Assembly (NCBI GenBank): GCA_964411375.1
Contig: CAYPKR010000001.1
Location: 358,629-422,628, forward strand
From: an uncultured Candidatus Saccharibacteria bacterium
Lineage (GTDB): Bacteria > Patescibacteriota > Minisyncoccia > Phycocordibacterales > UBA12088
Length of the DNA: 64,000 bases
Direction: 5' to 3'
The notes beneath the pieces are model-generated. The model was not told the DNA's origin. It made no database searches and saw only the letters and a list, made by a program, of their open reading frames with translations. Shown here piece after piece: positions 1-33,646 of the stretch (the first letter of the stretch is position 1; every line of letters starts with the position of its first letter). The position numbers and the translations under genes were made by a program.

Positions 1-1259
1 TCGGCGGTTTCATCGTTGGCGGCTTTCTATTCTTCGTTCTCTTCAAAGGCACCAACCCACTGCAAGATGCTGGTTCAGTCACTATTTGGGGGACGTTTTC
101 AGGGGCACAAATGACCAATTCTCTCCAAACCATCCAGAAAAAAACGAGCGGGCTCGCAAGTGTAACCTACCAAGAAAAAGATCCGCGCACGTTTAAAGAC
201 ACCATTCTTGAAGCACTTGCCGCTGGGAAAGGTCCCGATCTCATTCTTCTCAATCTCGACGATATTCTATCCTACCGGGATCGAATTTTATTCATTCCAT
301 ATACTTCCTACAGCGAACGTTCGTTCCGCGACACATTTTTTGATGACGCAGGGACATTGCTATTCCCGGACGGTATTGCGGGCATACCATTTTCGTACGA
401 TCCGATCGTAATGTATTTCAACCGCGATCGATTTGCTTCTGCAGGAATCGCAAAGCCGCCGGAATATTGGGATGAAATGTTGACCTTGGTGCCAAAACTC
501 ACTAAGATCGATGACAATCAAAACGTACTCCAAAGTGGTCTTGCATTTGGCGAATCGGCAAATGTCGATCATTACAAAGAAATCCTCTCACTCCTTATTT
601 TGCAGGCAGGTTCTCCGATAACACAGGTGCAGACAAATGGTTCCGTCTCTTCTTCGCTTAATAAAAATATCGAAGGGGGAAATGAACGTCCTGGAAACGC
701 GGCGCTCCGCTTCTTTACGGAATTTTCGAATCCAATAAAATCAGTCTACTCATGGAATCGTGCGCTCCCGAGTGCACGGCAAATGTTCCTCTCGGGAGAT
801 TTAGCAATCTACTTTGGGTATGCGAGCGAATATCCTGATCTTCGCGCTGCAAATCCAAACTTGAATTTTGATCTCGCAAGCGTACCGCAATCGCGCACCG
901 CGAAGCGCCGGAGTTCGTACGGACAGATGACTGTGTTTGCGATTCCAAAACTTTCCAAAAATCCACGAGGCGCTCTGATTGCCGCTCAAATCCTTTCAAC
1001 AAACACTGCTGAGCAAGCATTTATAAAAACAACCAAGTTGCCGCCGGTTCGGAGAGATCTTCTCTCGGTTGCACAAACTGATGCATATCTAAGTGTCTTA
1101 TATGACTCAGCAATTATCGGTCGCGGATGGTTAGATCCAGGTCCAAGCGACAGTCTCCCTGTTTTCGCGCGTATGATCGATCAAGTAACTTCTGGTTCCA
1201 AAACCGTTGAAGATTCTGTAGCAGAAGGGGAAGCAGGGCTCGCAAAATTGTTTAAATGA
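1..1259 (+). CDS. ABC-transporter family-1 solute-binding protein (5' end cut by window edge)
   Basis: The frame is open from position 3 with no upstream stop. There is an N-terminal TM/signal-like stretch GGFIVGGFLFFVLF, then an ITIWG-type beginning and a DYxxxL/PDLIL pattern typical of family-1 solute-binding proteins. Confidence 0.55.
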   Translation, partial: GGFIVGGFLFFVLFKGTNPLQDAGSVTIWGTFSGAQMTNSLQTIQKKTSGLASVTYQEKDPRTFKDTILEALAAGKGPDLILLNLDDILSYRDRILFIPYTSYSERSFRDTFFDDAGTLLFPDGIAGIPFSYDPIVMYFNRDRFASAGIAKPPEYWDEMLTLVPKLTKIDDNQNVLQSGLAFGESANVDHYKEILSLLILQAGSPITQVQTNGSVSSSLNKNIEGGNERPGNAALRFFTEFSNPIKSVYSWNRALPSARQMFLSGDLAIYFGYASEYPDLRAANPNLNFDLASVPQSRTAKRRSSYGQMTVFAIPKLSKNPRGALIAAQILSTNTAEQAFIKTTKLPPVRRDLLSVAQTDAYLSVLYDSAIIGRGWLDPGPSDSLPVFARMIDQVTSGSKTVEDSVAEGEAGLAKLFK

Positions 1260-1275
1260 TATACTAAGCTCAACT

Positions 1276-1665
1276 ATGAAACTCCGCATCCGTTTTGCCT
1301 TCAAGAAAATATTTGTTTTCGGAGCACTCTTCCTTTCGAGTCCAATTTTGGTGCTTGCACAAGCGCGGACTGGCGCAAGTTTTCCAAATCCAATTGCTGC
1401 GCCTGACCTTACGACATTTCTCACGCTGGTTCTAAATGCGGTCACGCTCATTGTCTTTCCGTTCATCGTGCTTTTTATTGTCTATGCGGGATTCAAGATG
1501 ATTGCAGCGCGAGGAAACCCAGGAGAAATTTCCAAGGCAAAAGAGCAGATAATATACGCAATAATTGGTGCGCTTATCATTCTTGGTGCGCAAGCAATTT
1601 CCTTCGCGATCAAGGGCACCGTCGATACTATTCGTTGCGGTGGTGTTGGCTGTAATCCGCTCTAA
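1276..1665 (+). CDS. small two-TM VirB2/TrbC-like (CPR 'T4SS pilin-like') protein, array member 1
   Basis: 129 aa with a signal peptide, a hydrophobic helix, a short charged loop (ARGNPGEISKAKEQ) and a second helix. The architecture matches the N-terminal domain of ORFs 19076 and 20679. Confidence 0.5.
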   Translation: MKLRIRFAFKKIFVFGALFLSSPILVLAQARTGASFPNPIAAPDLTTFLTLVLNAVTLIVFPFIVLFIVYAGFKMIAARGNPGEISKAKEQIIYAIIGALIILGAQAISFAIKGTVDTIRCGGVGCNPL

Positions 1666-1670
1666 TCCAC

Positions 1671-2009
1671 ATGAATTCCAAGGTCAGATTGTTTCGAAAC
1701 AATATTATTGCGGTAGCAGTCGGTATTGGTACATTTCTTGCCCCACATATTGTCCGCGCCGATCCTCCGACACTTCGCGACATCATCGTCAAAATAACAT
1801 CGCTCATTCAGCTCGCGTCTATTTTGCTCGGTGGGCTCTTGGTTGTGGCGTTTGTGTGGGGTATCGCACGGTTTATCCTGAATGTGGGCGGATCTGACAA
1901 GCGCGCTGCCGATAAGCAATACTTATTTTGGGTAGTTGTCGCGATGTTCGTAATGTTTGGTGTCGTTGGACTCGTCACAATACTTCAAAACACGCTCCTC
2001 AATGGCTAA
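1671..2009 (+). CDS. small two-TM pilin-like protein, array member 2
   Basis: 112 aa with the same signal + TM-loop-TM layout. The 6-nt gap to the upstream gene suggests an operon. Confidence 0.5.
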   Translation: MNSKVRLFRNNIIAVAVGIGTFLAPHIVRADPPTLRDIIVKITSLIQLASILLGGLLVVAFVWGIARFILNVGGSDKRAADKQYLFWVVVAMFVMFGVVGLVTILQNTLLNG

Positions 2010-2412
2010 ACAATTCATACAAAAAGGCGGACTGGCTCTGATGTTGTGCATCAGCATTGTTCTTCCGAGTGTTGCGTACGGCGAAGCCACCATCGATGAT
2101 TTGTTGGTACATTCAATTGCTTTCGTAAACGGATATCTTATTTATGTGGCCTTTGCCGCGACATTCCTATTTTTCCTATACGGCATCGCACGGTACATTC
2201 TTGCTTCTGGAGATGATGCAAAAGTGGCGGGACGCCAGCTTATGATCTGGGGTTCGGTCGCTATGTTTATTGTTTCCTCAATTTGGGGATTGGTTGCGAT
2301 TATAAACCGCACGCTCGGACTTCCTGGCCAGCCAGAGGGAACGATTCGTGCGACCTGTGTTCATTTATTTGGTGAAGCACCTACCGAAAGCAATTGTGCC
2401 GATACCAACTAG
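2002..2412 (+). CDS. small two-TM pilin-like protein, array member 3
   Basis: The start is taken at the internal ATG 2002 (MAKQFIQKGG...), giving an 8-nt overlap with the upstream stop (aATGGCTAAa). It has two TM helices flanking a DDAKVAGRQLMIWGS loop. Confidence 0.45.
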   Translation: MAKQFIQKGGLALMLCISIVLPSVAYGEATIDDLLVHSIAFVNGYLIYVAFAATFLFFLYGIARYILASGDDAKVAGRQLMIWGSVAMFIVSSIWGLVAIINRTLGLPGQPEGTIRATCVHLFGEAPTESNCADTN

Positions 2413-2473
2413 CATTTGTGGAGAAGTCACTCGACAAATAATCGATGTACCGTAGCATGTAAGTATTATTTTC

Positions 2474-2842
2474 ATGAATCGACACGCTGTATCTCGAATC
2501 ACTGCAACCGTCGCATCGGTTTTTGTTTTCGCTACTCCGCTTATTACGCTTGCGCAAGGAAGCGATCTTTTTACTGTTGGTCAAGATAGCGCTACCGCAC
2601 TTCTTAATATTCTACAAACGCTGACGCAGGTTGCATTTCTCGCAATAATGGTCGCGTTCTTCTGGGGTCTCGCTAAATACATTTGGGGCGGCGCCGAGGA
2701 TAAAGAGCGCGGAAAAAATCTAATGGTGTGGGGAACGCTTGCCATTTTCGTCGCTGCGTCTATCTGGGGAATTGTGACGGTACTCAAAATCACTTTTGGT
2801 GTTGGTAATGAACAAACAGGCTTTGTACCGCTAGTCATTTAA
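2474..2842 (+). CDS. small two-TM pilin-like protein, array member 4
   Basis: 122 aa with a signal peptide and the conserved motif FFWGLAKYIWGGAEDKERGKNLMVWG...ASIWGIV shared with members 5 and 6. Confidence 0.55.
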   Translation: MNRHAVSRITATVASVFVFATPLITLAQGSDLFTVGQDSATALLNILQTLTQVAFLAIMVAFFWGLAKYIWGGAEDKERGKNLMVWGTLAIFVAASIWGIVTVLKITFGVGNEQTGFVPLVI

Positions 2843-2857
2843 CAGTAATAAATCAGT

Positions 2858-3223
2858 ATGACGACATCTAAAATACGATCAGCACTTATGCACGGCGTTG
2901 TCGCCGTAGGTTCTCTTGTTCCAGTTTTGGTTTCCGCACAAGCAAATGCACTCGACACAGTCGACCAGAGTACGATAACCCTTCTCACGATCGTCTCGCG
3001 CCTCTCCCTTATCGCATTCATGGCGATTCTCCTCTTTTTCTTCTGGGCAATAGCTAAATACATTTGGGGTGGCGCTGAGGATAAGGAAGAAACGAAGAAT
3101 CTCCTTATCTGGGCGGTGGTCGCACTGTTTGTCGCCGCTTCAATCTGGGGAATCGTTCAAGTGCTTAAAACAACCTTCGGGGTTGGCGACGAGACATCAG
3201 TCAATATTCCCCGCGCATTCTAA
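2858..3223 (+). CDS. small two-TM pilin-like protein, array member 5
   Basis: 121 aa carrying the motif FFWAIAKYIWGGAEDKEETKNLLIWA...ASIWGIV; a close paralog of 2474 and 3319. Confidence 0.55.
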   Translation: MTTSKIRSALMHGVVAVGSLVPVLVSAQANALDTVDQSTITLLTIVSRLSLIAFMAILLFFFWAIAKYIWGGAEDKEETKNLLIWAVVALFVAASIWGIVQVLKTTFGVGDETSVNIPRAF

Positions 3224-3318
3224 GCTTTATTTGTCCACACCGGATCCTTGCATGAAGGGCGGGAGGCGGTATTCTAAAGGGGAATTAGTCGCAATAGTTT
3301 ATTAATATTTTTGTATTC

Positions 3319-3672
3319 ATGAAAAAACTTATTTCGCTTTCCGCTCTCGGTATGTTTGCTCCGGCGCTTGCATTTGCACAGCTCACTGGTGCAGGTAATA
3401 CCATCACCGCAGCAGTAACAACGTTGGGAAATGTTGTTAACGCCCTTATTCCAATCGCGTTTGCTGCCGCACTCCTCTTCTTCTTCTGGGGTCTCGCACA
3501 GTACATCTGGGGTGGTGCCGAAGAGAAGGAAAAGGGTCGCAACCTCATGATCTGGGGCGTTGTTGCGCTCTTCATCATGGCGTCGATCTGGGGAATCGTT
3601 GGTGTGCTTCGAACAACGTTTGGTATTACTGCAAACCCATCGACTGCACAGGTTCCAGGCGTAACTCCGTAA
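3319..3672 (+). CDS. small two-TM pilin-like protein, array member 6
   Basis: 117 aa carrying the motif FFFWGLAQYIWGGAEEKEKGRNLMIWG...ASIWGIV. Confidence 0.55.
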   Translation: MKKLISLSALGMFAPALAFAQLTGAGNTITAAVTTLGNVVNALIPIAFAAALLFFFWGLAQYIWGGAEEKEKGRNLMIWGVVALFIMASIWGIVGVLRTTFGITANPSTAQVPGVTP

Positions 3673-3691
3673 TCTCTCCATTTTCCCTCAT

Positions 3692-3970
3692 ATGGGATTT
3701 CCTACTTCCGTATCGGAATTTATGAATCGGGTTGATGCCGCAATCATCAACCCGATTTTGGCATTACTCTTTACTGCAGGCATGCTGTACTTCCTCTGGG
3801 GCGGATTCCAGTTTATTGTCGGCGCAGCAGAACCATCAAAGCGCATTGAAGGGAAGCAGCACATGCTATGGGGTGTTATTGGTATGTTCGTAATGTTTTC
3901 GGTCTACGTCATTCTTCGAGTCGGACTTACGACATTTGACATAACGCCAGCACCAGGGTTGCCGCTCTAA
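3692..3970 (+). CDS. small two-TM pilin-like protein, array member 7 (no signal peptide)
   Basis: 92 aa with a diverged version of the same core (LWGGFQFIVGAAEPSKRIEGKQHMLWG). Confidence 0.45.
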   Translation: MGFPTSVSEFMNRVDAAIINPILALLFTAGMLYFLWGGFQFIVGAAEPSKRIEGKQHMLWGVIGMFVMFSVYVILRVGLTTFDITPAPGLPL

Positions 3971-3998: not shown

Positions 3999-4036
3999 GC
4001 AGGACGTGCGCGTTGCGCATGTCCTGCTTGTGGTAT
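3999..4036. terminator. bidirectional hairpin terminator between convergent genes
   Basis: Stem GCAGGACGTGCGC/GCGCATGTCCTGC (one G-U pair) followed by TTGTGGTAT. It lies between the end of the pilin array (+) and the stop of the 4084 (-) gene. Confidence 0.5.
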
Positions 4037-4083
4037 GTCGGCGATAATTGCCGACATACCGAATGTACTTTTTCCACATGCAG

Positions 4084-5325
4084 CTAACTTCTCTTCACCT
4101 GGATATGTATCTCCGCGGTGGGAGAGGTGTTTATAGGGCTTTTGGCGTACTTGAAGGTGAGACAATGAGCGTCTCTGCCTTCTCGTGTCCATGGCCTAGC
4201 TTTCCACCAAGGAATCCAGTCGACCGTAGTCGATGTCCACCGCTTCACTCCGATTTCCCAAGCCGCGATGGCTGGATCGGAATCCCAAGTGACAGATAGC
4301 CCGGGATTAAAGCAGAACTCCCTTTGTCCTCCTTTCTTGAGTGGTCCGGTACGTAAGTCTGAATCGGGGGTCTGCAACGTGACCTCTTGTCCCCGGATAA
4401 CCGGCTTCGTGAGGCTCTCTCCGAGATTTCTCACCAGGTTGGCACCCGGAACTGTTGGCAGGTGGATGTATCCCGAAGGTCCAGGCTTTGTCCCTTCGAT
4501 GATGGTGATCCTGTTCACGTCATCTGCTGTCGCATGTTGCTTCAGGATTCTGACGTTCGCACTCTCACCTGAACCACCGATCACATCGCCGACTTCATAG
4601 TCACCGAAGTGAAGTTGGCCGTCATCTCCGAGCGCACAGGGGCTTAATCCTGTTTTCGGATCGACTGCACAAACAGTCCTCCAACCCCAGAACAATTGAG
4701 CTGCTGCCACAAGAAGAATAATGGCGAGCATACCGACTGCAAATCGCCTTGCTTTAGGAATCAAATCCGCAGCGATAAGGGCGATAACCGTGGCAACAAT
4801 TGCTGCGGGATTTTGCTGGTACCAGAAGAGTAAATTTCTTCCGAACAGGGAAAATATCGCCCCAGCGAATATCACTCCCAGGAGGCATGCAAGAAATGCA
4901 GTTCCTCGACGAGGTGTTACACCTTGTTCCGCAAATCCACCTCTGATGGCGGAGATAAGAAATAAGAGTGCTATCACTCCGCCTCCTATCCACATCCCGT
5001 ATTCTCTTGCGAAGTTCTGGGTAGTGGCGAGGGAGGGAATGTATGGGGTTATATGACCCCACCAATACCAGGAGGCGGCAGCAAGGATACTGAAGAGTCC
5101 AAACCAACCGATTGTACTGAATTTCCTCCTTGGCCGGTCTTGTGTCTCCGCGGGATGCGTGACAATAGTTTGGGTCGTTGTTCCCGCCCTTCTCCTTCTC
5201 GGAGGCGGGGGAGCTGGCGCTGCACCGGTTCCTACCGGTGCAGCGTCTGCGGTTGCAGCAGTCGTCGTTACTGCTCCTTCTTCCGGTCTCGACACTGTCG
5301 CCGAGTTCCTTGTTATCCTTGGCAT
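4084..5325 (-). CDS. membrane protein with a Pro/Ala-rich N-terminus, about 5 TM helices and a C-terminal soluble domain (possible NfeD-like partner of the SPFH protein)
   Basis: 413 aa lying in a high-GC island directly downstream of the SPFH gene (16-nt gap). The membrane-plus-C-terminal-beta-rich layout recalls NfeD/YuaF proteins, but I see no recognizable motif. Confidence 0.4.
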   Translation of the reverse strand: MPRITRNSATVSRPEEGAVTTTAATADAAPVGTGAAPAPPPPRRRRAGTTTQTIVTHPAETQDRPRRKFSTIGWFGLFSILAAASWYWWGHITPYIPSLATTQNFAREYGMWIGGGVIALLFLISAIRGGFAEQGVTPRRGTAFLACLLGVIFAGAIFSLFGRNLLFWYQQNPAAIVATVIALIAADLIPKARRFAVGMLAIILLVAAAQLFWGWRTVCAVDPKTGLSPCALGDDGQLHFGDYEVGDVIGGSGESANVRILKQHATADDVNRITIIEGTKPGPSGYIHLPTVPGANLVRNLGESLTKPVIRGQEVTLQTPDSDLRTGPLKKGGQREFCFNPGLSVTWDSDPAIAAWEIGVKRWTSTTVDWIPWWKARPWTREGRDAHCLTFKYAKSPINTSPTAEIHIQVKRS

Positions 5326-5340: not shown

Positions 5341-6654
5341 TTACGGTGAGTTGCCCTCCGCTGGTGGCGGTGGGGAGTGGTCGGTGTTTGCAGAACCAGA
5401 ATTAGCCGGTGTACCCCTAAAGATCGCACCTGCAAGTCCTGCCATTTCCTCGATACCCCTTGCTCCGAAGAAAAAGGTAGCCTTATCTCCGAGCGCTTTA
5501 GTGGTTTCGAGCCCTACGGCGATGCGAGATACATCGTCCAGAGAACCATCAGCTTGTGTTAAACCAGCCTTGATGCCCTCCAGTCGTGCAGTGCTCGCAG
5601 CACCGTCACCTTCGCCTTCCCTCGTTCGCTTAACCCTGTCTGCTTCAGCAGCCAGAACCGTAGCTCGTGCCGCCGCAACCGCCTGAGCGGGCCTCTGGAG
5701 CTGAGTATTCAGCTCATGTGACAGACCAATTGCTTTGATCGCTCCCTGAGTTATTTTTGTACCCCAGGTTTTAGAACGATCTTGCAGTCGAGCGAGGATT
5801 TGATCGCTGAACTCCCTCACCCTGACCATCACTTCCGCGAGCGTATGTGAAGGCAAGAGTTCAGTCAGTGTACGAGTGACCACGTCTTCGAGCAGCCGTT
5901 TTGCTGTGTCGAGATCACGAAGCTCTCGTACAAAGACTCGAGGATTCAGTATCTGAAAGGCAAATATAGCAGATACCTCCTGAGTCACACGCTGCGCAAG
6001 CGGGTCGGGATTGTTTGCATCCCCACCTTGCGCAAATGTGATTCGGAAGACCGGCCTTCTGCCTGGCGGGACGGGAACCCTGTCCTCGTTTCGTACCAGA
6101 AATTCTGGTTCATCCGGCACCTCCTTTTGGATTTCTCCGCTCGGAAAGGTTATTAACGAGCAGAGTCCATAGGGAAGAAATACCGGACCGCTCGTAACGT
6201 TCATGATTGGACGATTGAGCAGGAGTACGACCCCCACTTCATCCGGACCAACGGTGATAACCGAGAGCCCGTCTTCGTCTATCGTGAAGAAGCTGGCAAG
6301 TATATAAGCCAGCACCAAGAGACTCGTAAGAATGCTTGACCAGAGATGGTTATACCCCTGCATATACTGGGCGAGTCGGTGAGGAATAACGTAGAGGGTG
6401 AGATAGACAGCACCGCAAACGAGAACGATCGCGATAAGCGACCATACGACTCTGCGGATAGTCTCGCCGAATCCCGGCGCACCCTCATTTCCGTTTTGGA
6501 TGGGGGAAGGAGCTGGTGGAGTTCTTCGACGCGCACGCATTTTTAGTCCGTAGCGCACGATGACCCCCAAGAATGAGATAGTTACCAAGAAGAAGATTCC
6601 ACCAAAGACGAGATTGCCTGCTCCAAAGGAGTCGACAAGCTGATTGGTGTCCAT
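5341..6654 (-). CDS. SPFH/band-7 (stomatin/prohibitin/HflK-C-like) membrane protein
   Basis: 437 aa with an N-terminal TM region, a core segment (AQRVTQEVSAIFAFQILNPRVFVRELRDLDTAKRLLEDVVTRTL...) and an Ala-rich helix (QAVAAARATVLAAEADRVKRTREGE) typical of SPFH domains. GC is about 57-60%. Confidence 0.65.
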   Translation of the reverse strand: MDTNQLVDSFGAGNLVFGGIFFLVTISFLGVIVRYGLKMRARRRTPPAPSPIQNGNEGAPGFGETIRRVVWSLIAIVLVCGAVYLTLYVIPHRLAQYMQGYNHLWSSILTSLLVLAYILASFFTIDEDGLSVITVGPDEVGVVLLLNRPIMNVTSGPVFLPYGLCSLITFPSGEIQKEVPDEPEFLVRNEDRVPVPPGRRPVFRITFAQGGDANNPDPLAQRVTQEVSAIFAFQILNPRVFVRELRDLDTAKRLLEDVVTRTLTELLPSHTLAEVMVRVREFSDQILARLQDRSKTWGTKITQGAIKAIGLSHELNTQLQRPAQAVAAARATVLAAEADRVKRTREGEGDGAASTARLEGIKAGLTQADGSLDDVSRIAVGLETTKALGDKATFFFGARGIEEMAGLAGAIFRGTPANSGSANTDHSPPPPAEGNSP

Positions 6655-14564: not shown

Positions 14565-17270
14565 TTGTCTAAATCTACTCACATGACTCCATTCAATAAT
14601 TTCACAACCAAGGCGAAGGAAGCGGTACGAAAAGCCCACGAACTTGCTATTGAACGCGGACAAAATCACGTCAATCCGCTCCATCTTCTAACCGCACTCA
14701 TCCTGCAGGAAGAAAATACTGTCTTTTCTATACTCGAGCGACTCGACGTCGATACGGTACTTTTGACTGACACACTCCTTGAAGCACTTGAAGCGCCGGA
14801 AGGATCATCAGTGCTCTCACCTTCATATCAGCTCTACCTCACGCCAGAACTTGCACACGTACTTGAAAATTCTGCACGCATTGCGTCAGCACTTGGCGAT
14901 CAGTTTGTTTCTACCGAACATCTTTTCATCGCTATTCTTGATAATCCGGGCCCAGCGCGCGAAGTAATCGCTCGTTTCCGATTTGATCGGAATTCTGTCA
15001 TCAGAATTATTCAGGAACTCAAGGCAAACAATGTTACTGATGTCGCACAACCAAAGAAATTTAAAGCCCTCGCAAAATTTACGCGTAATCTAACGGCGCT
15101 TGCCGCTGACAACAAACTCGATCCAGTCATCGGTCGTGATGGTGAAATCACCCGCGTCATTCAGATCCTTTCTCGTCGAACCAAAAATAATCCGATTTTG
15201 ATCGGTGAGGCGGGTGTTGGAAAAACCGCAATCGCCGAAGGTCTCGCAAATCGTATCGCATCAGGTGACGCACCAGAATCGCTTCGCGGAAAGGAACTTG
15301 TTGCGCTCGACTTAGGGCTTCTCATTGCGGGTACGAAATATCGCGGCGAATTTGAAGAGCGTCTCAAAAACATTATGAAAGAAGTTGAGAAGGCGGATGG
15401 GAAAGTCATCCTCTTTATCGACGAGCTTCATACGATCGTTGGTGCGGGTGCAGCAGATGGCGCGATGGATGCGTCAAACATGCTGAAGCCAGCGCTTGCG
15501 CGCGGAGAACTTCGGGTTATCGGTGCAACGACGCTTGCTGAATATCAAAAGCACATCGAAAAAGATGCAGCGCTCACGCGTCGCTTCCAGCCGGTCATTG
15601 TAAATGAACCGTCGATCGAAGATGCGGTCGCGATTCTTCGTGGACTTCGTGAAAAGTACGAAGTCTTCCATGGCGTTCGAATTACCGATGAAGCAATCGT
15701 TGCGGCAGTTAATCTTTCTTCCCGCTATATCACTGATCGATTCTTGCCGGACAAGGCGATCGATTTGATTGACGAATCTGCGTCAGCACTCCGTATCTCG
15801 CTTGAAAATAAACCGGCGGCTCTCGAAGATGCACACCGCAAAATAATGCGCCTCGAAGTCGAGAAGGAAGCGCTTTCAAAAGACTTGGAAATTCACGAAG
15901 GTCGTGATACCAAGGCGCGCATCAAACAAATTGAAAAAGAAATCGCCGATCTTCGCGAGAAGACTGCCGACCTCGAACTTCGATGGAGCAACGAAAAGGA
16001 AGTGCTCTCTGATATCAAGGCGCTCAAAAAACAACTTGAAACGCTTCGAAATGAAGCAGAAAACGCGGAAGCAGTTGCTGATCTTTCTCGTGCTGCCGAA
16101 GTACGCTATGGAAAAATTCCGGCACTTGAGCGCGATCTCGATCAGAAGGTCAAAAAATTAAAGCGATTCCAGCAGACGCGCCGTGTGCTGAAAGAAGAGA
16201 TTATGGAAGAGGATATTGCAGCAGTTGTTGCGCGCTGGACGGGTGTTCCGGTTTCTCGAATGCTCGAAGAAGAAGCACAGAAGCTTTCTCGTATGGAAGA
16301 TTCGCTGAAAGATCGAATCGTGGGACAAGATGATGCAATTACGAAGGTTGCCGCTGCGGTGAAGCGATCTCGTGCAGGCATTGCTGATCCAAATCGTCCA
16401 ATCGGTTCGTTCCTCTTCCTCGGTCCAACGGGAGTTGGTAAAACGGAACTCTCAAAGGCGCTCGCTGAATTCATGTTTGATGACGAGAAATCGCTCATTC
16501 GAGTCGACATGTCCGAATACATGGAACGCCACGCAGTGTCCAAGCTCATCGGTGCGCCTCCAGGATATGTTGGATTTGAAGAAGGCGGATCTTTGACCGA
16601 ACTCGTTCGTCATCGTCCGTACTCGGTTTTGCTCTTCGACGAAATTGAAAAAGCGCATCCCGAAGTCTTCAACATTCTGCTTCAAGTTCTCGACAGCGGT
16701 CATTTGACCGATTCAAAGGGACGCAAAGTGAACTTCAAAAATACAATCATCATTTTGACTTCGAACATTGGTTCGCAATACATCGATCGCATGACGCAGA
16801 TCGGATTCTCGAAAGATAATGGTAACGAGGCGGTGCAGTACGAAATGACAAAGGACAAGGTGATGGATTCGCTCAAAGAATTCTTCCGCCCTGAATTCCT
16901 CAATCGTCTTGATGAAATCATCATCTTCAATATGCTCTCCGAGGACGCGATTAAGAATATTGTCGCGATGCAGGTGAAGTTGGTCGCTGATCGCTTGCTC
17001 CAAAAGGGAATCACGCTCACGCTCACTGATGCCGTCTATGCGCATCTCGCAAAAACTGGATACGATCCGCACTACGGTGCCCGTCCACTGAAGCGCTTGA
17101 TTCAAAACAAGATTTTGACCCCGGTCGCCTCGATGATGATCTCCGAAGGACTGCTTGGGGGTGGCTCGGTTGTCGTCGACATGAAGGGGACGGAATTCGC
17201 ATTCGATGTGAAGAAAAAGAAGGGAACCGTTCGTCGGGCTTCAAAGAAAGAGGAGAAGGTGTTGGTATAG
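14565..17270 (+). CDS. clpB: ATP-dependent chaperone ClpB
   Basis: 901 aa with Clp-N repeats, D1 Walker [16 protein letters not shown], a long coiled-coil M-domain, D2 Walker [16 protein letters not shown], Walker [11 protein letters not shown] and sensor GARPLKR. Confidence 0.85.
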
Positions 17271-18408: not shown

Positions 18409-18924
18409 TTACTTACAAATCGACGTTGAAGAGGCTATATGTCCCACGGTCGAACTTGAGGTTCCTACAATGCAGATGATACCTCTGCCAAATGCCCCGC
18501 TGCCCACTTCGAGAAATGCAAGAACAGAATAATCATCTGTCTTCGGAGAACTGCCTCCGCCGCTTGAAGAAATGCCATATTGGCACACGCCTGTTGAAGA
18601 TAGAGTACAAACTGTTGTTCCGTTCGGATCCTTAAATTTGGAGAGTTGGGTCATATCAATTCCATTTATTGTTCCCGTGCACGAATTTATATTCGAGCTT
18701 GCCGCGGTACAGCCTTGAAGCGCTGGACCCGTAGCTCCGGTTGCGAGATTGAGTACGCGCCCAATCTGTTCAAGATCAGAAATACGTTGGGCATCACGCG
18801 CCTTGGTCCTGGCGCTATTCAAGGATGCAAGAACAACTGATGAGAGAATGCCGATGATTGCGATGACCACGAGAAGTTCGATAAGCGTGAATCCATAACT
18901 CCTCCTTATTTGGGGGCTGCTCAT
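18409..18924 (-). CDS. type IV pilin / pseudopilin (class III signal peptide)
   Basis: N-terminus MSSPQIRRSYG|FTLIELLVVIAIIGIL with the prepilin-peptidase site G-F and a Glu at +5. The remainder is Ser/Thr/Gly-rich with 6 Cys. Confidence 0.7.
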   Translation of the reverse strand: MSSPQIRRSYGFTLIELLVVIAIIGILSSVVLASLNSARTKARDAQRISDLEQIGRVLNLATGATGPALQGCTAASSNINSCTGTINGIDMTQLSKFKDPNGTTVCTLSSTGVCQYGISSSGGGSSPKTDDYSVLAFLEVGSGAFGRGIICIVGTSSSTVGHIASSTSICK

Positions 18925-19075
18925 ACTGATGTAGTTCAAATTAATTACAACAAATTTATCATAGCATCCTTCAAGGAAGCGGCGCAGGGTTCCGAGGCCG
19001 AGGTGGGGAAATCTTTCCCCGCGTTCTGTGTATAAAAACAGCCATATCGTCGCATTTTATCGTTATACTAATTTC

Positions 19076-20053
19076 ATGAAGTATCTTGCATGGCTCCTTG
19101 CCTTGCTCTCGTTTTCGATTATCCCGACGGCCGTGTTTGCCGCTGGTGGACTTGTACCGTGCGATGGACCGGAGTGTGATATCTGTTCGTTTGTTGCGCT
19201 CGGACAAAAAATCCTCAATTTCCTCGTCTATGCTTCGGTCCTTATTGCGACCATCATGTTCACGTATGCAGGGATTGAAATGCTCATTCATTCCGACAAT
19301 TCCGGAGCGATCTCGCAAGCGCGACATACGTTTATGAATGTACTGATTGGACTCGTCGCAATTCTCGCCGCGTGGCTCATCATCGATACAGTTATGCGCG
19401 TTCTCTTTACCTACAACAATGGTTTTGAAGGAACGGCAGGATACGGAAAGCCTTGGGAGGATATTTTGTGCGCGTATCAATCGGAACCGCCTCCACCCAC
19501 TACCGGAGGCGGTGGAACGACTGCTACCGCAGGAGGGGGTAGCGCGACCGCGGGAGGTGGAGGTGGATCATGCACAGTACAAACGGATGGTGCGTGTAGT
19601 GTGAGTGCGCTGACACCAGTCTTCGATACCGTAGCAAGCCAAGCATCGCAAATCTGCAATGCAGAAAGCGGCGGAAATCCGAACAGTGAAAGTGCTGTGG
19701 ATCGCATTCTCGCTGGCGGACAGGCATTTTCAGTCGGGCTATTTCAAATAAACATGACGCAACATGATCTCACTGCTCCGGCATGCAAGGCGCTAAACGG
19801 CGGTAATCCAATGGATTGCTCCCAATTAGATACTTCTGTAATAGGTCCACCGCTCACTCCACCTGCATTTACCGGCTCAAATCGAAATGCCCGCATTACT
19901 AATACTGCTTTGTACAATGCATGTAGTGCAGCGCTCAAAAATCCTGCGTGCGCAATACAGACTGCCAAACAAATTTACATTGCTGGCGGAGGTCCTTCGC
20001 GCCCAAATTCATGGGCACAGTGGTCGACTGCTGCAACCTGTCATCTTCCGTAA
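19076..20053 (+). CDS. fusion protein: N-terminal VirB2/TrbC-like two-TM pilin domain, Gly/Thr linker, C-terminal lytic-transglycosylase/lysozyme-like domain
   Basis: The start is taken at MKYLAWLL. It has a signal peptide, then PCDGPECDICS, two TM helices (the same layout as array gene 1276) and a GGGTTATAGGG linker. The C-terminal CNAESGGNPNSES...GLFQIN matches the E-S...GL(F/M)QI signature of SLT/Rpf-type transglycosylases. Confidence 0.5.
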   Translation: MKYLAWLLALLSFSIIPTAVFAAGGLVPCDGPECDICSFVALGQKILNFLVYASVLIATIMFTYAGIEMLIHSDNSGAISQARHTFMNVLIGLVAILAAWLIIDTVMRVLFTYNNGFEGTAGYGKPWEDILCAYQSEPPPPTTGGGGTTATAGGGSATAGGGGGSCTVQTDGACSVSALTPVFDTVASQASQICNAESGGNPNSESAVDRILAGGQAFSVGLFQINMTQHDLTAPACKALNGGNPMDCSQLDTSVIGPPLTPPAFTGSNRNARITNTALYNACSAALKNPACAIQTAKQIYIAGGGPSRPNSWAQWSTAATCHLP

Positions 20054-20084: not shown

Positions 20085-20666
20085 ATGAAAATATTCCTCA
20101 AATTTTTTCTCGGCATAGGGGTGATCGGGCTCATTGGAGTTTCCATTCTCTATTTCTTTTTTACGAAACAGCAACCAATCGAGGAGCCAACAACTGGAGA
20201 GGCAACGATAAACGGATTTCCAACAAGTGGCGGTGGAACAATTATCGGAGGAGGATCGGCGGGGAGCACAACAACCACTGGAGAGATTCCTCCCGGCAAG
20301 CGCGCTATTCAGACCCGTGGATCTGACAAGATTGTGGTAAATGATTTCCTCGCAAGTTCAACACCGCATCAGGACGAATATATCGGCGAATATTATTTAC
20401 TGAATGAATCGACGACGACACCGCCATTCCAAATTATTTACACGGCGAAAGATCAGTTTTTCCAGATTTCGATTGAAAAAGCTCCGCTCGGAATTGTCCG
20501 AAAAGATGCAGAAACATTTCTTCTTACCTCGCTCGGTATAAACCAACAGACGGCGTGCTTACTGAAACATTCAGTCGGAGTTCCTAATTGGCTCGATACG
20601 CATTATTCGGGAAAGAATGTGGAATTTAGTTTTTGCCCAGGTACTGTATTGCTTCCAGAAATTTAA
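20085..20666 (+). CDS. membrane-anchored hypothetical protein with Gly/Thr-rich linker
   Basis: 193 aa with an N-terminal TM helix, a GGGTIIGGGSAGSTTTTG linker and a beta-rich C-terminus. Confidence 0.4.
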   Translation: MKIFLKFFLGIGVIGLIGVSILYFFFTKQQPIEEPTTGEATINGFPTSGGGTIIGGGSAGSTTTTGEIPPGKRAIQTRGSDKIVVNDFLASSTPHQDEYIGEYYLLNESTTTPPFQIIYTAKDQFFQISIEKAPLGIVRKDAETFLLTSLGINQQTACLLKHSVGVPNWLDTHYSGKNVEFSFCPGTVLLPEI

Positions 20667-20678
20667 TTTATCCTCGAT

Positions 20679-21617
20679 ATGAAATCAGTAATCCGATTTT
20701 TTACAGTGACGGTAGTTGCATTTATGCCGTTTGTCGTTTTGTATGCCGCGGGTGGACTCGTACCGTGCGACGGACCAGAGTGTGATCTATGTTCACTTGT
20801 CGCGCTCGCTCAGAAAATAATGAATTTCCTGATTTTCATTGCGGTCATTATTGCGACCATCATGTTTGTCTACGCGGGATTCACGATGCTCGTGAATGCA
20901 GACAATGCAGGAAAGCGAAGTGAGGGGCGGAAAATTTTTGTGAATGTACTGATTGGACTCGTCGCAATTCTCGCCGCGTGGCTCATCATCGATACGGTCA
21001 TGAAAGTTCTCTTCGTCAATTCTGAACTCAACAACGATCGGGTCGGGCGCCCGTGGCAGGATATTTTGTGCGAGTTTCAATCCGTAAAGCCGCCACCCGA
21101 TGGGGGTGGAACTGCAACTGCAGGAACAGCTACCGCAGGCACCGCGACTGCTGGCGGTACCGCAACAGCAGGAGGCGGAACCGCAGGTGGTAGTGGTAGC
21201 GGAGCTCCATTGCATCAGGATGCGGCGTTCGCTCTTCTTAATGCAAGTAACATCGCAATACATAGCTCAGGTGATTGTACCGATCCGAATATTTCCACCT
21301 GTACATCTCTTGAAGGAATGCGGCAGGGAACTGTTGCCGGCATCATCAATCTATCGAATAGCGTCTGTGGCTCGGATGGGGGTTGTGTCGTAGTGACCGG
21401 AGGTACGGAAGTAGGGCATGAACCAGGAGTCTGTTCTCATTCAAATGGATGCAAGGCAGACGTTGCATTTAATCCTGCGGTCGATGCATATATCACGACC
21501 TTTGTTCGAATAGGCGACCGGACTGACGGTGCGGCGCAGTATCAGGATAGGTGTGGAAATATCTATGCCCGAGAGTCAGACCATTGGGACATCTCTTTCC
21601 CGAACGCATGCTCCTAA
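20679..21617 (+). CDS. fusion protein: N-terminal pilin-like two-TM domain (paralog of 19076) + (GTATA)n linker + Cys-rich C-terminal domain of unknown function
   Basis: The N-terminal 130 aa is about 75% identical to 19076, including a 55-nt identical DNA tract (20941-20995 = 19335-19389). The C-terminal domain is unrelated and has 12 Cys. Confidence 0.5.
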   Translation: MKSVIRFFTVTVVAFMPFVVLYAAGGLVPCDGPECDLCSLVALAQKIMNFLIFIAVIIATIMFVYAGFTMLVNADNAGKRSEGRKIFVNVLIGLVAILAAWLIIDTVMKVLFVNSELNNDRVGRPWQDILCEFQSVKPPPDGGGTATAGTATAGTATAGGTATAGGGTAGGSGSGAPLHQDAAFALLNASNIAIHSSGDCTDPNISTCTSLEGMRQGTVAGIINLSNSVCGSDGGCVVVTGGTEVGHEPGVCSHSNGCKADVAFNPAVDAYITTFVRIGDRTDGAAQYQDRCGNIYARESDHWDISFPNACS

Positions 21618-32094: not shown

Positions 32095-32664
32095 TTAATT
32101 TCCGCCTACGCAAACAGTCGTCTGACTGCCCCACCAATTGCCGTTTGCGCCTGTATATTTGCCGACACAATAATGCGGCTGGGAGCCAATTTCATAATAC
32201 GCGCCGCCGCTGTTGTAATAGCCCTTGTCTCCGGTTGCGTGGGAAAAACTGCCCGCATCCGCCAGACGAATCATGAATCCGTACGTTTGGTAGTTGTCGC
32301 CGGAATCTGAATCGTAATAATACCGATATACGTTTGCGCCGGGATTCGGATCGATCGGTACTTTGAGGTAGGGAGCGAGGTCGGTAACCAATCCGCACCA
32401 CGCAGCATTTCCTCCGCATGCTTGCGTCACATCAGTCTGGGCGTTGTTACGCTTCGGGTAATAACCGTACGTGTTCACATAGAGAGCGAGTGCCGTTCGT
32501 ATCTGTTTTACGTCTGATAATCGAGTGGCGTCCTGTGTTTTGGTACGCGCAGATGCAAGGGAAGCGAGAATGACGCCTGCAAGCAGTCCAATAATCGCGA
32601 TGACGACAAGAAGTTCGATGAGGGTAAAAGCGCGTTGTCGGGCGCGCTGTTCGGAGGTGACCAT
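32095..32664 (-). CDS. type IV pilin (class III signal peptide)
   Basis: MVTSEQRARQRA|FTLIELLVVIAIIGLLAG. Ala rather than Gly sits at -1. The globular part is Tyr/Gly/Asn-rich with 4 Cys. Confidence 0.65.
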   Translation of the reverse strand: MVTSEQRARQRAFTLIELLVVIAIIGLLAGVILASLASARTKTQDATRLSDVKQIRTALALYVNTYGYYPKRNNAQTDVTQACGGNAAWCGLVTDLAPYLKVPIDPNPGANVYRYYYDSDSGDNYQTYGFMIRLADAGSFSHATGDKGYYNSGGAYYEIGSQPHYCVGKYTGANGNWWGSQTTVCVGGN

Positions 32665-32776: not shown

Positions 32777-33646
32777 CTAACACCTATGCAGTGAGCCGCT
32801 TCGCTCAATGATGATTCCTTTGAGTTCCAGCGTTGCGAGAAGTACGTTTGTTTTTGAAATGGGAAAATTGAGCACTCGGATGATTTCATCGCGAGGAAGC
32901 GGATTCTCAAGAAGATCAATAATCCGGCGTTCATCTAGGGAAAGAGAGGAAAGGTCAATGCTTGGCTTTTCGCCTTCTACCGAAAAGCCGAGTGCTTCCA
33001 AAATATCTTCGCTTTTAGTTATTGGTGTCGCACCATTTCGAATGAGCATATGCGGTCCATACGAGTGTGGATTAAAAATCGAACCAGGAACTGCAAAAAC
33101 ATCACGATTATATTCGGTCGCAAGTTTTGAGGTAATGAGCGTTCCTGATTTTTCTCCAGCCTCGATCACGAGTGTCGCATGAGAAATTCCTGCCATAAGG
33201 CGATTGCGGCGCGGGAAGCTCCAAGTCGTCGCTTTGAAATCAGGTTCGAATTCAGAAAGTAATGCGCCCTTTGTATCCAAAATTCTTTTTGCAAGTAAAC
33301 GATTTGATGCGGGGTAGAGAACGGCGTCAGCAATTCCACTTCCGGGAATCGCAAGTGTGTAGAGACTCGCATCAAGTGCCGCTTCGTGCGCGAGCGCGTC
33401 AGTTCCAAGCGCGAGACCAGAAACAATTCCAACCTTGTAGCCGCGAAGTCCCGCAATCAATTTTTGCGTCACTTCTTTTCCGTACGAAGAAATCGCACGC
33501 GAACCAACGACTGCGAGCAACTTCAAATCCGGCGAGGGAAGTGTCCCGCGCAAATATAGTTTCTTTGGCGGATCAGTAATTTCTTTCAGGAGTTGAGGAA
33601 ACTCGTCGAACGAAAGTGTTTCCATATCAATATATTGTAGCGCCAC
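32777..33646 (-). CDS. dprA: DNA processing protein DprA (Smf)
   Basis: LAVVGSRAISSYGKEVTQKLIAGL, GIVSGLALGTDALAHEAAL and a C-terminal wHTH. The dprA-topA neighbourhood is conserved. Confidence 0.8.
   Translation of the reverse strand: MALQYIDMETLSFDEFPQLLKEITDPPKKLYLRGTLPSPDLKLLAVVGSRAISSYGKEVTQKLIAGLRGYKVGIVSGLALGTDALAHEAALDASLYTLAIPGSGIADAVLYPASNRLLAKRILDTKGALLSEFEPDFKATTWSFPRRNRLMAGISHATLVIEAGEKSGTLITSKLATEYNRDVFAVPGSIFNPHSYGPHMLIRNGATPITKSEDILEALGFSVEGEKPSIDLSSLSLDERRIIDLLENPLPRDEIIRVLNFPISKTNVLLATLELKGIIIERSGSLHRC

What the first reader, a model, noticed from the sequence alone, without database searches (positions are those of the whole stretch)
1276..3970. Tandem array of seven paralogous two-TM 'pilin-like' (VirB2/TrbC-type) genes
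Seven consecutive same-strand genes of 92-136 aa sit 6-100 nt apart. Each encodes a signal peptide (six of seven) and two hydrophobic helices around a short charged loop. Four share the near-invariant core FFWGLAKYIWGGAE(D/E)KE.GKNLM.WG...ASIWGIV. This is the architecture of conjugative/T4SS pilins (VirB2/TrbC) and of the small 'T4SS pilin-like' family that is expanded in CPR bacteria. No VirB4/VirB6/VirD4 ATPase or channel gene is in the window, so the array is either an orphan, divergent pilus-subunit repertoire or a distinct small-membrane-protein system. The level of diversification (members 1-3 versus 4-6 versus 7) suggests antigenic or functional variation of a surface filament or a host-contact structure.
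Basis: partly seen in the sequence, partly recalled or inferred. Interest (0 to 1): 0.6.

Follow-up and report, generated by a model that had tools for sequence, protein, structure and literature searches.

The report
Patescibacterial VirB2-like pilin gene array
Seven adjacent small membrane-protein genes in an ultra-small (CPR/Patescibacteria) bacterium belong to the known 'T4SS pilin' family, whose multi-gene arrays are already published and are essential in a cultured relative; what looks new is that this array is joined to a sugar-binding-protein gene rather than to secretion-machine genes.

Summary
Seven same-strand ORFs (1276-3970) encode proteins of 92-136 aa. Six have signal-peptidase-I-type leaders, and all have two hydrophobic helices around a short charged loop. 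Five of the seven pass Pfam's own threshold for PF18895 (T4SS_pilin). All seven match an HMM built only from relatives' arrays (E 1e-25 to 1e-39). The host is a Patescibacteria chromosome.

Arrays of 2-11 divergent VirB2-like pilin genes in Patescibacteria are already published (PMC12102498). A six-gene PF18895 array is essential in Southlakia epibionticum (PMC10633639). This is therefore a new member of a known kind.

- The array is an old, ordered set. A gene-1-type (TrbC-like) member comes first and a leaderless gene-7-type member comes last in about 75-90% of 85 related arrays. Only genes 4 and 5 are a recent duplication. This argues against antigenic variation.
- A membrane-anchored sugar-type solute-binding protein sits immediately upstream in 40 of 51 pilin-seeded loci. 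In the reverse test, 68 of 70 SBP-seeded loci carry a pilin-like gene immediately downstream.
- No VirB4/VirD4-type ATPase lies in the window or in 131 related loci.

Only three genes, not four, share the quoted core motif. Fold searches were uninformative.

The parts
1..1259 (+). 3' 1259 nt of a 433-aa, N-terminally membrane-anchored, sugar-type solute-binding protein (SBP_bac_8 / SBP_bac_1). Its true start lies 42 nt before the window. Its stop is 16 nt before gene 1.
   Evidence: Pfam SBP_bac_8 at 76.4 bits and SBP_bac_1 at 60.3 bits. The full gene is in the identical contig L001:3206-4507. The best solved relatives are sugar-binding proteins (4r9f MBP1, E 7e-11). It lies directly upstream of the array in 40 of 51 genomes, and 68 of 70 SBP-seeded loci have a pilin-like gene directly downstream.
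1276..1665 (+). Gene 1, 129 aa. The 'first-position' type and the most TrbC/VirB2-like member. Leader to about A30, mature about 99 aa, with 2 Cys in the C-terminal tail.
   Evidence: PF18895 at 48.5 bits and PF04956 at 28.4 bits. NF045849 (Mycoplasma ICE pilin-like) at 31.1 bits, below its cutoff of 40. The gene-1 type comes first in 32 of 36 and 43 of 49 arrays.
1671..2009 (+). Gene 2, 112 aa. A divergent member with leader ...VRA|D.
   Evidence: PF18895 at 24.0 bits, just below the gathering score. The relatives-only HMM gives E 1e-25. Its best external match is the second gene of the L011 array.
2002..2412 (+). Gene 3, 136 aa from ATG 2002 (8-nt overlap with gene 2) or 123 aa from ATG 2041. 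A divergent member with 2 Cys in a long C-terminal tail.
   Evidence: PF18895 reaches only 10.4 bits, but the relatives-only HMM gives E 5e-29. Its best external match is the third gene of L011. The alternative start comes from the public gene call.
2474..2842 (+). Gene 4, 122 aa. A 'middle' type carrying the full FFWGLAKYIWGGAEDKE.GKNLM.WG...ASIWGIV core.
   Evidence: PF18895 at 34.8 bits. Motif 24 of 24. It is 57% identical to gene 5, and both best-hit the same single gene in L011, which indicates a recent duplication.
2858..3223 (+). Gene 5, 121 aa. A 'middle' type and the recent duplicate partner of gene 4.
   Evidence: PF18895 at 39.6 bits. Motif 19 of 24.
3319..3672 (+). Gene 6, 117 aa. 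The best-conserved 'middle' type.
   Evidence: PF18895 at 40.9 bits. It is 66% identical to its positional counterpart in L011. The AF2 model shows a helical hairpin.
3692..3970 (+). Gene 7, 92 aa. The leaderless 'last-position' type.
   Evidence: PF18895 at 35.2 bits. There is no upstream in-frame start. The gene-7 type comes last in 27 of 36 and 43 of 49 arrays, and the median length of the last member is 95 aa.
3999..4061 (.). Two stem-loops between the array and the convergent gene 4084-5325(-). The loop at 4031-4061 is followed by a T-rich tail on the + strand. The loop at 3999-4027 is followed by T-rich sequence on the - strand. Together they are the likely end of the transcription unit.
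   Evidence: The pattern scan found a 14-pair hairpin at 4031-4061. The 3999-4027 hairpin was read directly from the sequence. These are consensus patterns only, not shown to function.

Best explanation
The seven genes are the Paceibacteria-type version of the multi-gene 'VirB2-like pilin array' of Patescibacteria.

What the proteins are. Each product is a small inner-membrane protein of Pfam family PF18895. Six are inserted through Sec and trimmed by signal peptidase I. The seventh is made without a leader. In all seven, the mature 81-109-aa protein is a helix-loop-helix hairpin with both ends outside the cell and a short charged loop inside.

How the set is organised. The genes are co-transcribed with the upstream membrane-anchored sugar-binding protein, and probably with the small methyltransferase before it. 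The set is not redundant. A TrbC-like type always leads, a leaderless type always closes, and 2-5 'middle' types lie between them. Only the middle types duplicate.

What I infer they do. They are distinct subunits of one heteromeric envelope structure. This is most probably the pilus or conduit of the patescibacterial T4SS-like machine, whose VirB4/VirB6 genes lie elsewhere on the chromosome, and it is used for contact with the host cell.

Shown here: the genes, their topology features, family membership, conserved order, the SBP linkage and the absence of nearby T4SS genes. Inferred: cleavage of the leaders, co-transcription, assembly into a filament, dependence on a distant T4SS, and a role in host contact.
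For: - Family. PF18895 passes its gathering score for 5 of 7 genes, and TrbC passes for gene 1. An HMM built only from relatives matches all 7 at E 1e-25 to 1e-39. There are sub-threshold hits to the Mycoplasma-ICE 'pilin-like conjugal transfer protein' NF045849 for 5 of the 7 array genes and for both fusion proteins elsewhere in the window.
- Topology. hhalign against real VirB2/TrbC sequences aligns cleavage site, helix 1, loop and helix 2 in register (P 0.0013, probability 18%).
- Same kind as published arrays. There are 441 arrays of 2-11 genes with about 25% mean identity (PMC12102498). SEML1_0014-0016 are PF18895, SEML1_0019 is annotated as a pilin, the members shown score as essential in Tn-seq, and the array sits beside a VirB6-like gene (PMC10633639 main text and supplements).
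- Non-redundant ordered set.
- Operon features. The methyltransferase stop overlaps the SBP start (ATGA). The SBP-to-gene-1 gap is 16 nt here, and a 4-nt overlap is the commonest arrangement in relatives. Hairpins follow gene 7.
Against: - No VirB4, VirD4, VirB6 or PrgI gene lies in 64 kb or within 6-10 kb of 131 related loci. The link to a T4SS therefore rests on family name and on analogy with Saccharibacteria.
- Similarity to bona fide VirB2 is marginal. Only gene 1 passes TrbC, by 0.5 bit. hhalign probability is 18%. There is no PDB sequence hit and no tblastn hit in 72,556 plasmids.
- Fold searches return only generic helical hairpins, with no conjugative pilin in the top 50-60.
- A T4SS model does not explain the near-obligate SBP partner.
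- There are no experimental data for Paceibacteria.
Confidence: 0.6

Rival explanations
1. SBP-coupled, T4SS-independent module. The hairpin proteins oligomerise in the membrane as the partner of the otherwise orphan sugar-type binding protein. They act either as a new kind of SBP-dependent uptake or anchoring complex, or as a short surface fibre that displays the SBP as a glycan receptor. The T4SS plays no part.
For: - The SBP lies immediately upstream in 40 of 51 pilin-seeded loci.
- A pilin-like gene lies immediately downstream in 68 of 70 SBP-seeded loci. The median gap is 4 nt and the commonest arrangement is a 4-nt overlap.
- The SBP is strongly conserved, with more than 1,100 homologues and about 43-47% identity across the class.
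- No ABC permease or ATPase for it lies in the window, and none appears among the conserved neighbours.
- No T4SS gene lies nearby in 131 loci.
- The operon sits in a housekeeping neighbourhood, gyrA-methyltransferase-SBP-array ... infB.
Against: - gyrA and infB are just as syntenic, so in these compact, vertically inherited genomes adjacency alone is weak evidence of shared function.
- The same protein family sits inside the T4SS cluster, without an SBP, in Southlakia.
- No energising component is evident.
- I know of no precedent for 2-TM hairpins serving as an SBP-dependent permease.
Confidence: 0.2
2. Interchangeable pilin repertoire. The paralogues are alternative major subunits that are swapped or mixed to vary the surface, for antigenic or host-range variation, as proposed for Bartonella and Anaplasma VirB2 paralogues and suggested for Patescibacteria.
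For: - Mutual identity is low, 19-57%.
- Array size varies from 3 to 8 between genomes.
- Genes 4 and 5 are a recent duplication.
- PMC12102498 raises this idea.
Against: - The first and last positions are held by the same orthologous types in about 75-90% of arrays in two independent samples.
- Genes 1, 6 and 7 are clearly closer to their positional counterparts in another genome than to any paralogue in the window. For genes 2 and 3 the identities are comparable, but the best external hit is still the positional counterpart.
- One member consistently lacks a leader.
- The members of the Southlakia array are individually essential, so they are not redundant.
Confidence: 0.12
3. Unrelated small membrane proteins (holin, bacteriocin/immunity or similar) that hit a pilin HMM only because of hydrophobic composition.
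For: - The proteins are short, two-helix and hydrophobic.
- Several weak hits to unrelated membrane families appear at E 0.003-0.4.
- Some JGI homologues carry unrelated automatic names such as TRAP small permease or YidH.
Against: - PF18895 passes its curated threshold in 5 of 7 genes, with full-length domain alignment.
- Gene-1 orthologues repeatedly also hit TrbC.
- No PHROG family, and so no holin family, matches at E up to 0.01.
- No lysis, toxin or phage genes lie nearby.
- The locus is a conserved chromosomal site in more than 120 genomes and contigs.
Confidence: 0.03

Closest known systems
Pilin array SEML1_0014-0019 of 'Ca. Southlakia epibionticum' ML1 (Saccharibacteria), Wang et al. 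2023, PMC10633639
   Same: Six tandem same-strand genes; the sizes seen run 127-138 aa. SEML1_0014-0016 are PF18895 and SEML1_0019 is annotated as a pilin. The members are sequence-divergent but share one fold, and the host is a patescibacterial chromosome.
   Different: The Southlakia array lies inside the T4SS cluster, next to a VirB6-like gene and a PrgI-like gene, and has no SBP upstream. Essentiality is shown there and is untested here. The present array has seven members, one of them leaderless. It lies between an SBP gene and infB, with no T4SS gene within 64 kb.
VirB2-like pilin arrays across Patescibacteria (441 arrays of 2-11 genes in 383 assemblies), Quinonero-Coronel et al. 2025, PMC12102498
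   Same: The definition is met: tandem PF18895/PF04956 genes, low mutual identity (about 25% mean and 54% maximum in the paper; 19-57% here) and a chromosomal location.
   Different: The paper reports arrays as most abundant in Microgenomatia and Saccharimonadia, and it discusses antigenic or host-range variation. It does not mention a solute-binding-protein partner ('solute' occurs 0 times) or a fixed member order. Two of the seven members here would fail its HMM cutoffs.
Conjugative pilins VirB2 / TrbC / TraA (Pfam PF04956 and relatives) of Gram-negative T4SS
   Same: A cleaved leader followed by two hydrophobic helices and a short charged loop, with small mature size. Gene 1 reaches the TrbC gathering score. 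The hhalign alignment is in register.
   Different: The similarity is marginal. The leaders here are ordinary ones of 20-31 aa rather than the long VirB2/TraA leaders, which I state from my own knowledge. The genes are not in a virB/tra operon. There are seven different members instead of one major pilin. No structural match to solved pili was recovered.
Mbov_0395-family pilin-like conjugal transfer protein of Mycoplasma ICEs (NCBIfam NF045849)
   Same: A small two-helix protein of a monoderm conjugation system. Five of the seven array genes and both fusion proteins (19028-20053, 20679-21617) hit it at E 1e-7 to 7e-3. This fits the proposed MPF-FATA ancestry of the patescibacterial T4SS.
   Different: All scores (16-31 bits) are below the model's cutoff of 40, so these genes are not members. 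The Mycoplasma gene is single-copy and lies within an ICE.
Tandem VirB2 paralogues of Bartonella and Anaplasma T4SS
   Same: Multiple divergent VirB2 copies lie side by side (cited in PMC12102498).
   Different: Those are thought to be alternative surface variants within a virB locus. Here the members are ancient, position-specific and probably used together.

Membership tests
Pfam PF18895 T4SS_pilin | Whole-protein score at or above the curated gathering score (26.6 bits) | tested here: met
   Genes 1, 4, 5, 6 and 7 score 48.5, 34.8, 39.6, 40.9 and 35.2 bits. Gene 2 scores 24.0 and gene 3 scores 10.4, both below threshold.
Pfam PF18895 T4SS_pilin | The two sub-threshold members (genes 2 and 3) are homologous to the rest | tested here: met
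   An HMM built from 265 array members of 51 other genomes, with no window sequences, gives E 1e-25 for gene 2 and 5e-29 for gene 3. Their positional counterparts are present in L011.
Pfam PF18895 T4SS_pilin | Leader followed by a helix-loop-helix hairpin of about 70 aa | tested here: met
   Hydropathy, the AF2 model of gene 6 and AxA-type sites in genes 1-6. Gene 7 lacks the leader.
Patescibacterial VirB2-like pilin array (PMC12102498) | Two or more pilin-family genes in tandem, or separated by one gene, on a Patescibacteria chromosome, with divergent sequences | tested here: met
   Seven contiguous genes with 19-57% pairwise identity. All relatives are Patescibacteria, and the neighbours are housekeeping genes.
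Patescibacterial VirB2-like pilin array (PMC12102498) | Required for epibiotic growth | not testable with these tools
   Shown only for Southlakia ML1 by Tn-seq.
TrbC/VirB2 conjugative pilin (PF04956) | Score at or above the gathering score (27.9 bits) | tested here: inconclusive
   Gene 1 scores 28.4 bits and no other array gene hits. Orthologues of gene 1 in other contigs give 'weak' TrbC hits.
TrbC/VirB2 conjugative pilin (PF04956) | Profile-profile homology to bona fide VirB2 | tested here: inconclusive
   hhalign of the array profile against 5 real VirB2/TrbC sequences from plasmids gave probability 18%, P 0.0013 and 71 columns aligned in register. The VirB2 profile is narrow.
TrbC/VirB2 conjugative pilin (PF04956) | Structural match to solved conjugative pilins | tested here: inconclusive
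TrbC/VirB2 conjugative pilin (PF04956) | Encoded with VirB4 and other mating-pair-formation genes | tested here: not met
   None lies in the 64-kb window. None lies within 6-10 kb in 131 related loci. The ORFs of at least 500 aa there are GyrA, IF-2, ClpB, FtsH, PyrG, SecA and others, and the unscanned ones lack a Walker A motif. The rest of the 514-kb genome was not available.
TrbC/VirB2 conjugative pilin (PF04956) | Polymerises into an extracellular pilus | not testable with these tools
   This needs microscopy, proteomics or multimer modelling.
Type IV pilin (T4P; class III leader, PF07963 N_methyl) | Prepilin-peptidase motif with an N-methylated hydrophobic N-terminus | tested here: not met
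   No N_methyl hit for any of the seven, and their leaders are of the signal-peptidase-I type. True T4P pilins are elsewhere in the window (18409-18939, 32095-32664).
SBP-dependent ABC importer (CUT1 type) | The binding protein is accompanied by two permeases and an ATPase | tested here: not met
   The SBP is present. No BPD_transp_1 or ABC_tran gene appears among the window ORFs of at least 150 aa or among the conserved neighbours. A distant permease elsewhere in the genome cannot be excluded.
Holin / bacteriocin-type small membrane proteins | Match to a holin or bacteriocin family, or a lysis/toxin gene context | tested here: not met
   No PHROG hit at E up to 0.01. No such Pfam hit. The context is housekeeping.

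The most novel reading that the evidence does not exclude
The 'methyltransferase - membrane-anchored sugar-binding protein - ordered pilin-like set' is a self-contained envelope apparatus conserved across Paceibacteria, and it works without the T4SS. The hairpin proteins form a heteromeric membrane or surface assembly whose dedicated partner is the otherwise orphan binding protein. That would be either a new class of SBP-dependent uptake system or a glycan-sensing host-contact fibre in organisms that depend on host metabolites.
Probability: 0.2. Interest if true: 0.7.

Novelty: new member of a known kind. Interest (0 to 1): 0.35.

Why it matters
Patescibacteria are a very large, mostly uncultured share of bacterial diversity, and they live attached to host cells. 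In the one genetically tractable species, the T4SS-like machine and its unusual multi-pilin array are essential for that lifestyle.

This locus shows that the largest class, Paceibacteria, keeps an ordered and evidently non-redundant set of 4-7 such subunits at a fixed housekeeping locus. The set is detached from the secretion ATPases and is attached to a sugar-type binding protein.

That sharpens the open question of what these pilin sets build: one heteromeric structure or a collection of variants. It also supplies a concrete candidate partner, the SBP, to test. If the SBP link is functional, it would connect host-contact structures to nutrient capture.

As submitted, however, the finding mainly rediscovers a published feature.

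Tried and rejected
- **An 822-aa gene is not VirB4.** It is conserved about 2 kb upstream in 38 loci and looked like a VirB4 candidate, but it is GyrA.
- **A long operon in L022/L030 is not a T4SS cluster.** It reads RF-YceG-ClpB-FtsE-FtsX-PyrG, then 2-3 pilin-like genes, then FtsH.
- **Large ORFs near related arrays gave no VirB4/VirD4.** Ten further ORFs were scanned and are a Schlafen-type helicase, PrkA, PPDK, SecA, a pectate-lyase-like protein or unknowns. A motif screen found no other Walker-A protein of at least 500 aa.
- **A profile search of PDB sequences found nothing relevant** (best hit PsaF, E 0.5).
- **tblastn of gene 1 against 72,556 plasmids gave no match at E up to 1**.
- **The VirB2 reference profile stayed narrow.** A second tblastn meant to broaden it returned almost only Rhizobiaceae.
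- **The search for related loci with all seven aligned failed** because the alignment had no conserved block. It was rerun with genes 4-6.
- **PHROGs gave no hit**.
- **Rfam and the tRNA scan found nothing inside the array**.
- **The promoter scan was no better than shuffled sequence**, with 6 hits against 5.4 expected, so no promoter is claimed.
- **Cluster look-up gave no names or accessions for the source proteins**.
- **The rest of the 513,972-bp source contig could not be reached**, so the presence of VirB4 elsewhere in this genome is untested.
- **Organism labels were not resolved.** Many related MAGs are titled 'uncultured Candidatus Saccharibacteria bacterium', while others, and NCBI's names for the SBP homologues, say Paceibacterota, Kaiser-, Taylor- or Zambryskibacteria. 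I treat the clade as Paceibacteria/Parcubacteria but could not verify the labels.

Full report

Yes.
- 1276-1665 (129 aa)
- 1671-2009 (112 aa)
- 2002-2412 (136 aa; a public gene call starts at ATG 2041, giving 123 aa)
- 2474-2842 (122 aa)
- 2858-3223 (121 aa)
- 3319-3672 (117 aa)
- 3692-3970 (92 aa)

The spacings are 5, -8, 61, 15, 95 and 19 nt.

Genes 1-6 begin with a basic stretch, a hydrophobic core and an AxA-like site. Gene 7 has no leader, and no in-frame start exists further upstream. Its 92 aa equal the mature length of the others, 81-109 aa. After the leader, every protein has two strongly hydrophobic segments separated by a short charged loop. An AlphaFold2 model of gene 6, built on a 45-sequence alignment, gives a leader helix and then a hairpin of helices 28-64 and 67-101, with pLDDT above 90 in the hairpin.

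One detail is overstated. Only genes 4, 5 and 6 carry the quoted core (24, 19 and 21 of 24 fixed positions). Gene 3 has a degenerate copy at 7 of 24.

**2. What family is it?**

Pfam places genes 1, 4, 5, 6 and 7 in PF18895 (T4SS_pilin), above the curated threshold of 26.6 bits, with scores from 34.8 to 48.5. Gene 2 falls just short at 24.0 and gene 3 is far below at 10.4. Gene 1 also passes TrbC/VirB2 PF04956 by half a bit, 28.4 against 27.9.

An HMM built solely from 265 array members of 51 other genomes recognises all seven at E 1e-25 to 1e-39, so genes 2 and 3 are divergent members and not intruders.

NCBIfam gives only sub-threshold hits, of 16-31 bits against a cutoff of 40. All are to one model, the Mycoplasma-ICE 'Mbov_0395 family pilin-like conjugal transfer protein'.

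Direct links to classical VirB2 are weak:
- No PDB sequence hit.
- No tblastn hit in the plasmid collection.
- hhalign against five genuine VirB2/TrbC proteins fetched from plasmids gives an in-register alignment, but only 18% probability and P 0.0013.
- Fold searches return generic helical hairpins. That is expected for a two-helix fold and is uninformative.
- No PHROG family, and therefore no holin, matches.

**3. Host and surroundings.**

The window is an ordinary patescibacterial chromosome segment. It carries a short IF-2, ClpB, TopA, RelA/SpoT, SerRS, ParB, DnaX, DprA, TatC and seven tRNAs. The source contig is 513,972 bp.

Every ORF of at least 150 aa was scanned. The window contains no VirB4, VirD4, VirB6, PrgI, ABC permease or ABC ATPase.

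Two hairpins follow gene 7, before a convergent gene. Promoter-like matches are no more frequent than in shuffled sequence.

**4. Relatives.**

Two peptide patterns from genes 4-6 retrieved 51 loci from species-representative genomes, and all of them are Patescibacteria. Every locus carries a same-strand tandem array of 2-7 family members, 3-7 wherever the array is complete.

Clustering of the neighbours shows a fixed chromosomal site, and independent metagenome contigs repeat it. The gene order is:
- Pth, then an S1 protein, then an MBL-fold protein
- GyrA
- a small class-I methyltransferase
- a 433-aa SBP_bac_1/8 protein
- the array
- a convergent IF-2 further downstream

The ORF at 111-1259 in the window is the 3' part of that SBP gene. 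An identical 11.5-kb contig, with 0 mismatches over 8,290 nt, supplies the missing start and an N-terminal membrane anchor. It also shows the methyltransferase stop overlapping the SBP start as ATGA.

**5.

(a) *The order is conserved.* I assigned each array member to its best-matching window gene.
- A gene-1-type member comes first in 32 of 36 complete genome arrays and in 43 of 49 metagenome arrays.
- A short, leaderless gene-7-type member comes last in 27 of 36 and 43 of 49.
- Genes 1, 2, 3, 6 and 7 each find their best external match at the same position in the closest genome, L011, at 55, 42, 37, 66 and 57% identity. For genes 1, 6 and 7 this clearly exceeds the identity to any paralogue in the window. 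For genes 2 and 3 the two values are comparable.
- Genes 4 and 5 are 57% identical to each other, and both hit a single L011 gene. They are a recent duplication.

The array is therefore an old set of specialised subunits with a duplicating middle class. It is not a fast-turnover repertoire.

(b) *The SBP linkage holds in both directions.*
- The SBP lies directly upstream in 40 of 51 pilin-seeded loci. Most exceptions are contigs cut at that point.
- In 80 loci seeded independently with the SBP, 68 of the 70 with enough downstream sequence have a pilin-like ORF starting directly after it. The median gap is 4 nt, and a 4-nt overlap is the commonest arrangement. Arrays of 4-7 genes occur in 36 of the 43 long loci.
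- The SBP is far better conserved than the pilin-like genes, with more than 1,100 homologues at about 43-47% identity. It resembles sugar-binding proteins of ABC importers, yet it has no permease or ATPase nearby.

**6. No T4SS genes lie nearby, in the window or in relatives.**

Among the 131 related loci, the ORFs of at least 500 aa fall into these groups:
- GyrA (79), IF-2 (16), ClpB (7), FtsH and PyrG.
- Singletons that proved to be a helicase, PrkA, PPDK, SecA or proteins of unknown family.
- Unscanned singletons, all of which lack a Walker A motif.

L022 and L030 carry short secondary pilin clusters between pyrG and ftsH.

**7. What is already known.**

Quinonero-Coronel et al. 2025 searched 3,035 Patescibacteria genomes with PF04956 and PF18895. 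They report 441 arrays of 2-11 pilin genes, with mean identity 25% and a maximum of 54%. The pilin gene lies near virB4 in only 1,135 of 1,948 assemblies. They suggest antigenic or host-range variation. The paper does not mention a solute-binding partner.

Wang et al. [quoted passage not shown] Their tables show SEML1_0014-0016 as PF18895, SEML1_0019 annotated as a pilin, and the members shown scored essential, beside a VirB6-like gene. A 2025 review calls this a pilin array of six structurally conserved, sequence-divergent VirB2-like pilins.

No paper in the held library links an SBP to these arrays.

**8. Interpretation.**

The most likely reading (0.6) is that these are the Paceibacteria pilin set of the patescibacterial T4SS-like apparatus. 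The proteins are Sec-inserted hairpins, co-expressed with the SBP, that assemble as distinct subunits into one heteromeric envelope structure. The machine that assembles them is encoded elsewhere; virB4 lies near dnaA in this class.

Family membership, topology features, order, linkage and the absence of nearby T4SS genes are shown here. Leader cleavage, co-transcription, filament formation, T4SS dependence and a host-contact role are inferred.

The main rival (0.2) takes the SBP linkage at face value and proposes a T4SS-independent SBP-hairpin module. Against it, gyrA and infB are equally syntenic in these compact genomes, and the same family sits in a T4SS cluster without an SBP in Southlakia.

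Antigenic variation (0.12) conflicts with the positional orthology and with the essentiality of individual members in Southlakia. A spurious HMM hit (0.03) conflicts with the curated-threshold matches and with the conservation of the locus.

**9. Verdict.**

The feature is real and correctly classified, but it is an instance of something already published, so it is a new member of a known kind. The incremental content is the fixed subunit order, the leaderless terminal member and the near-obligate SBP partner in Paceibacteria. I score interest at 0.35.

Noticed in passing
window 19028-20053 (+) and 20679-21617 (+), with 20085-20666 (+) between them: Two larger proteins (341 and 312 aa) carry an N-terminal T4SS_pilin domain (PF18895 at 39.1 and 40.2 bits; the second also hits TrbC at 23.4). 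The two are 58% identical over the first 140 aa, which includes a shared AAGGLVPCDGPECD.CS motif. A Gly/Thr/Ala-rich linker follows, and then different Cys-rich C-terminal domains. One of these gives a weak hit to lysozyme-like SLT_3 (E 0.008). They look like pilin-anchored effector or cell-wall-hydrolase fusions.
   Followed up: partly
window 18409-18939 (-) and 32095-32664 (-); 32777-33646 (-): Two type IV pilin-like genes carry the N-terminal methylation motif (PF07963, 35 bits each). A DprA gene lies next to the second one. This is type-IV-pilus/competence equipment distinct from the PF18895 array.
   Followed up: no
L001:2682-3209 (just upstream of the window start) and the same position in 34 related loci: A small class-I SAM methyltransferase (175-209 aa; Methyltransf_11/25/31) always precedes the SBP gene, and its stop codon overlaps the SBP start (ATGA). 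Whether it belongs to the same functional unit, for example by modifying the pilin-like proteins, is unknown.
   Followed up: partly
window 59843-60646 (+) and 60654-61463 (+), beside 59033-59800 (+) and TatC at 61703-62440: Two tandem paralogues (267 and 269 aa, 66% identical) have no Pfam match. They are preceded by another ORF of unknown family.
   Followed up: partly
window 4084-5325 (-) and 5341-6654 (-): A 413-aa protein converges on the array. It has no Pfam match, a Pro/Ala/Thr/Arg-rich N-terminus and several hydrophobic segments, and it lies in a local G+C rise (0.536 against about 0.47). Next to it is an SPFH/Band-7 protein. SPFH neighbours recur downstream of the array in only 8 related loci.
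   Followed up: no
L022:9691-10901 and L030:9854-10602: Some relatives carry a second, short cluster of 2-3 pilin-like genes between pyrG and ftsH, after an RF-YceG-ClpB-FtsE-FtsX run. It has no SBP and no T4SS genes.
   Followed up: yes
window 14565-17270 (+) and 37712-40189 (+): There are two ClpB-like AAA+ genes. The second (825 aa) matches only the second AAA module and the D2-small domain well, so it may be a degenerate or specialised paralogue.
   Followed up: no
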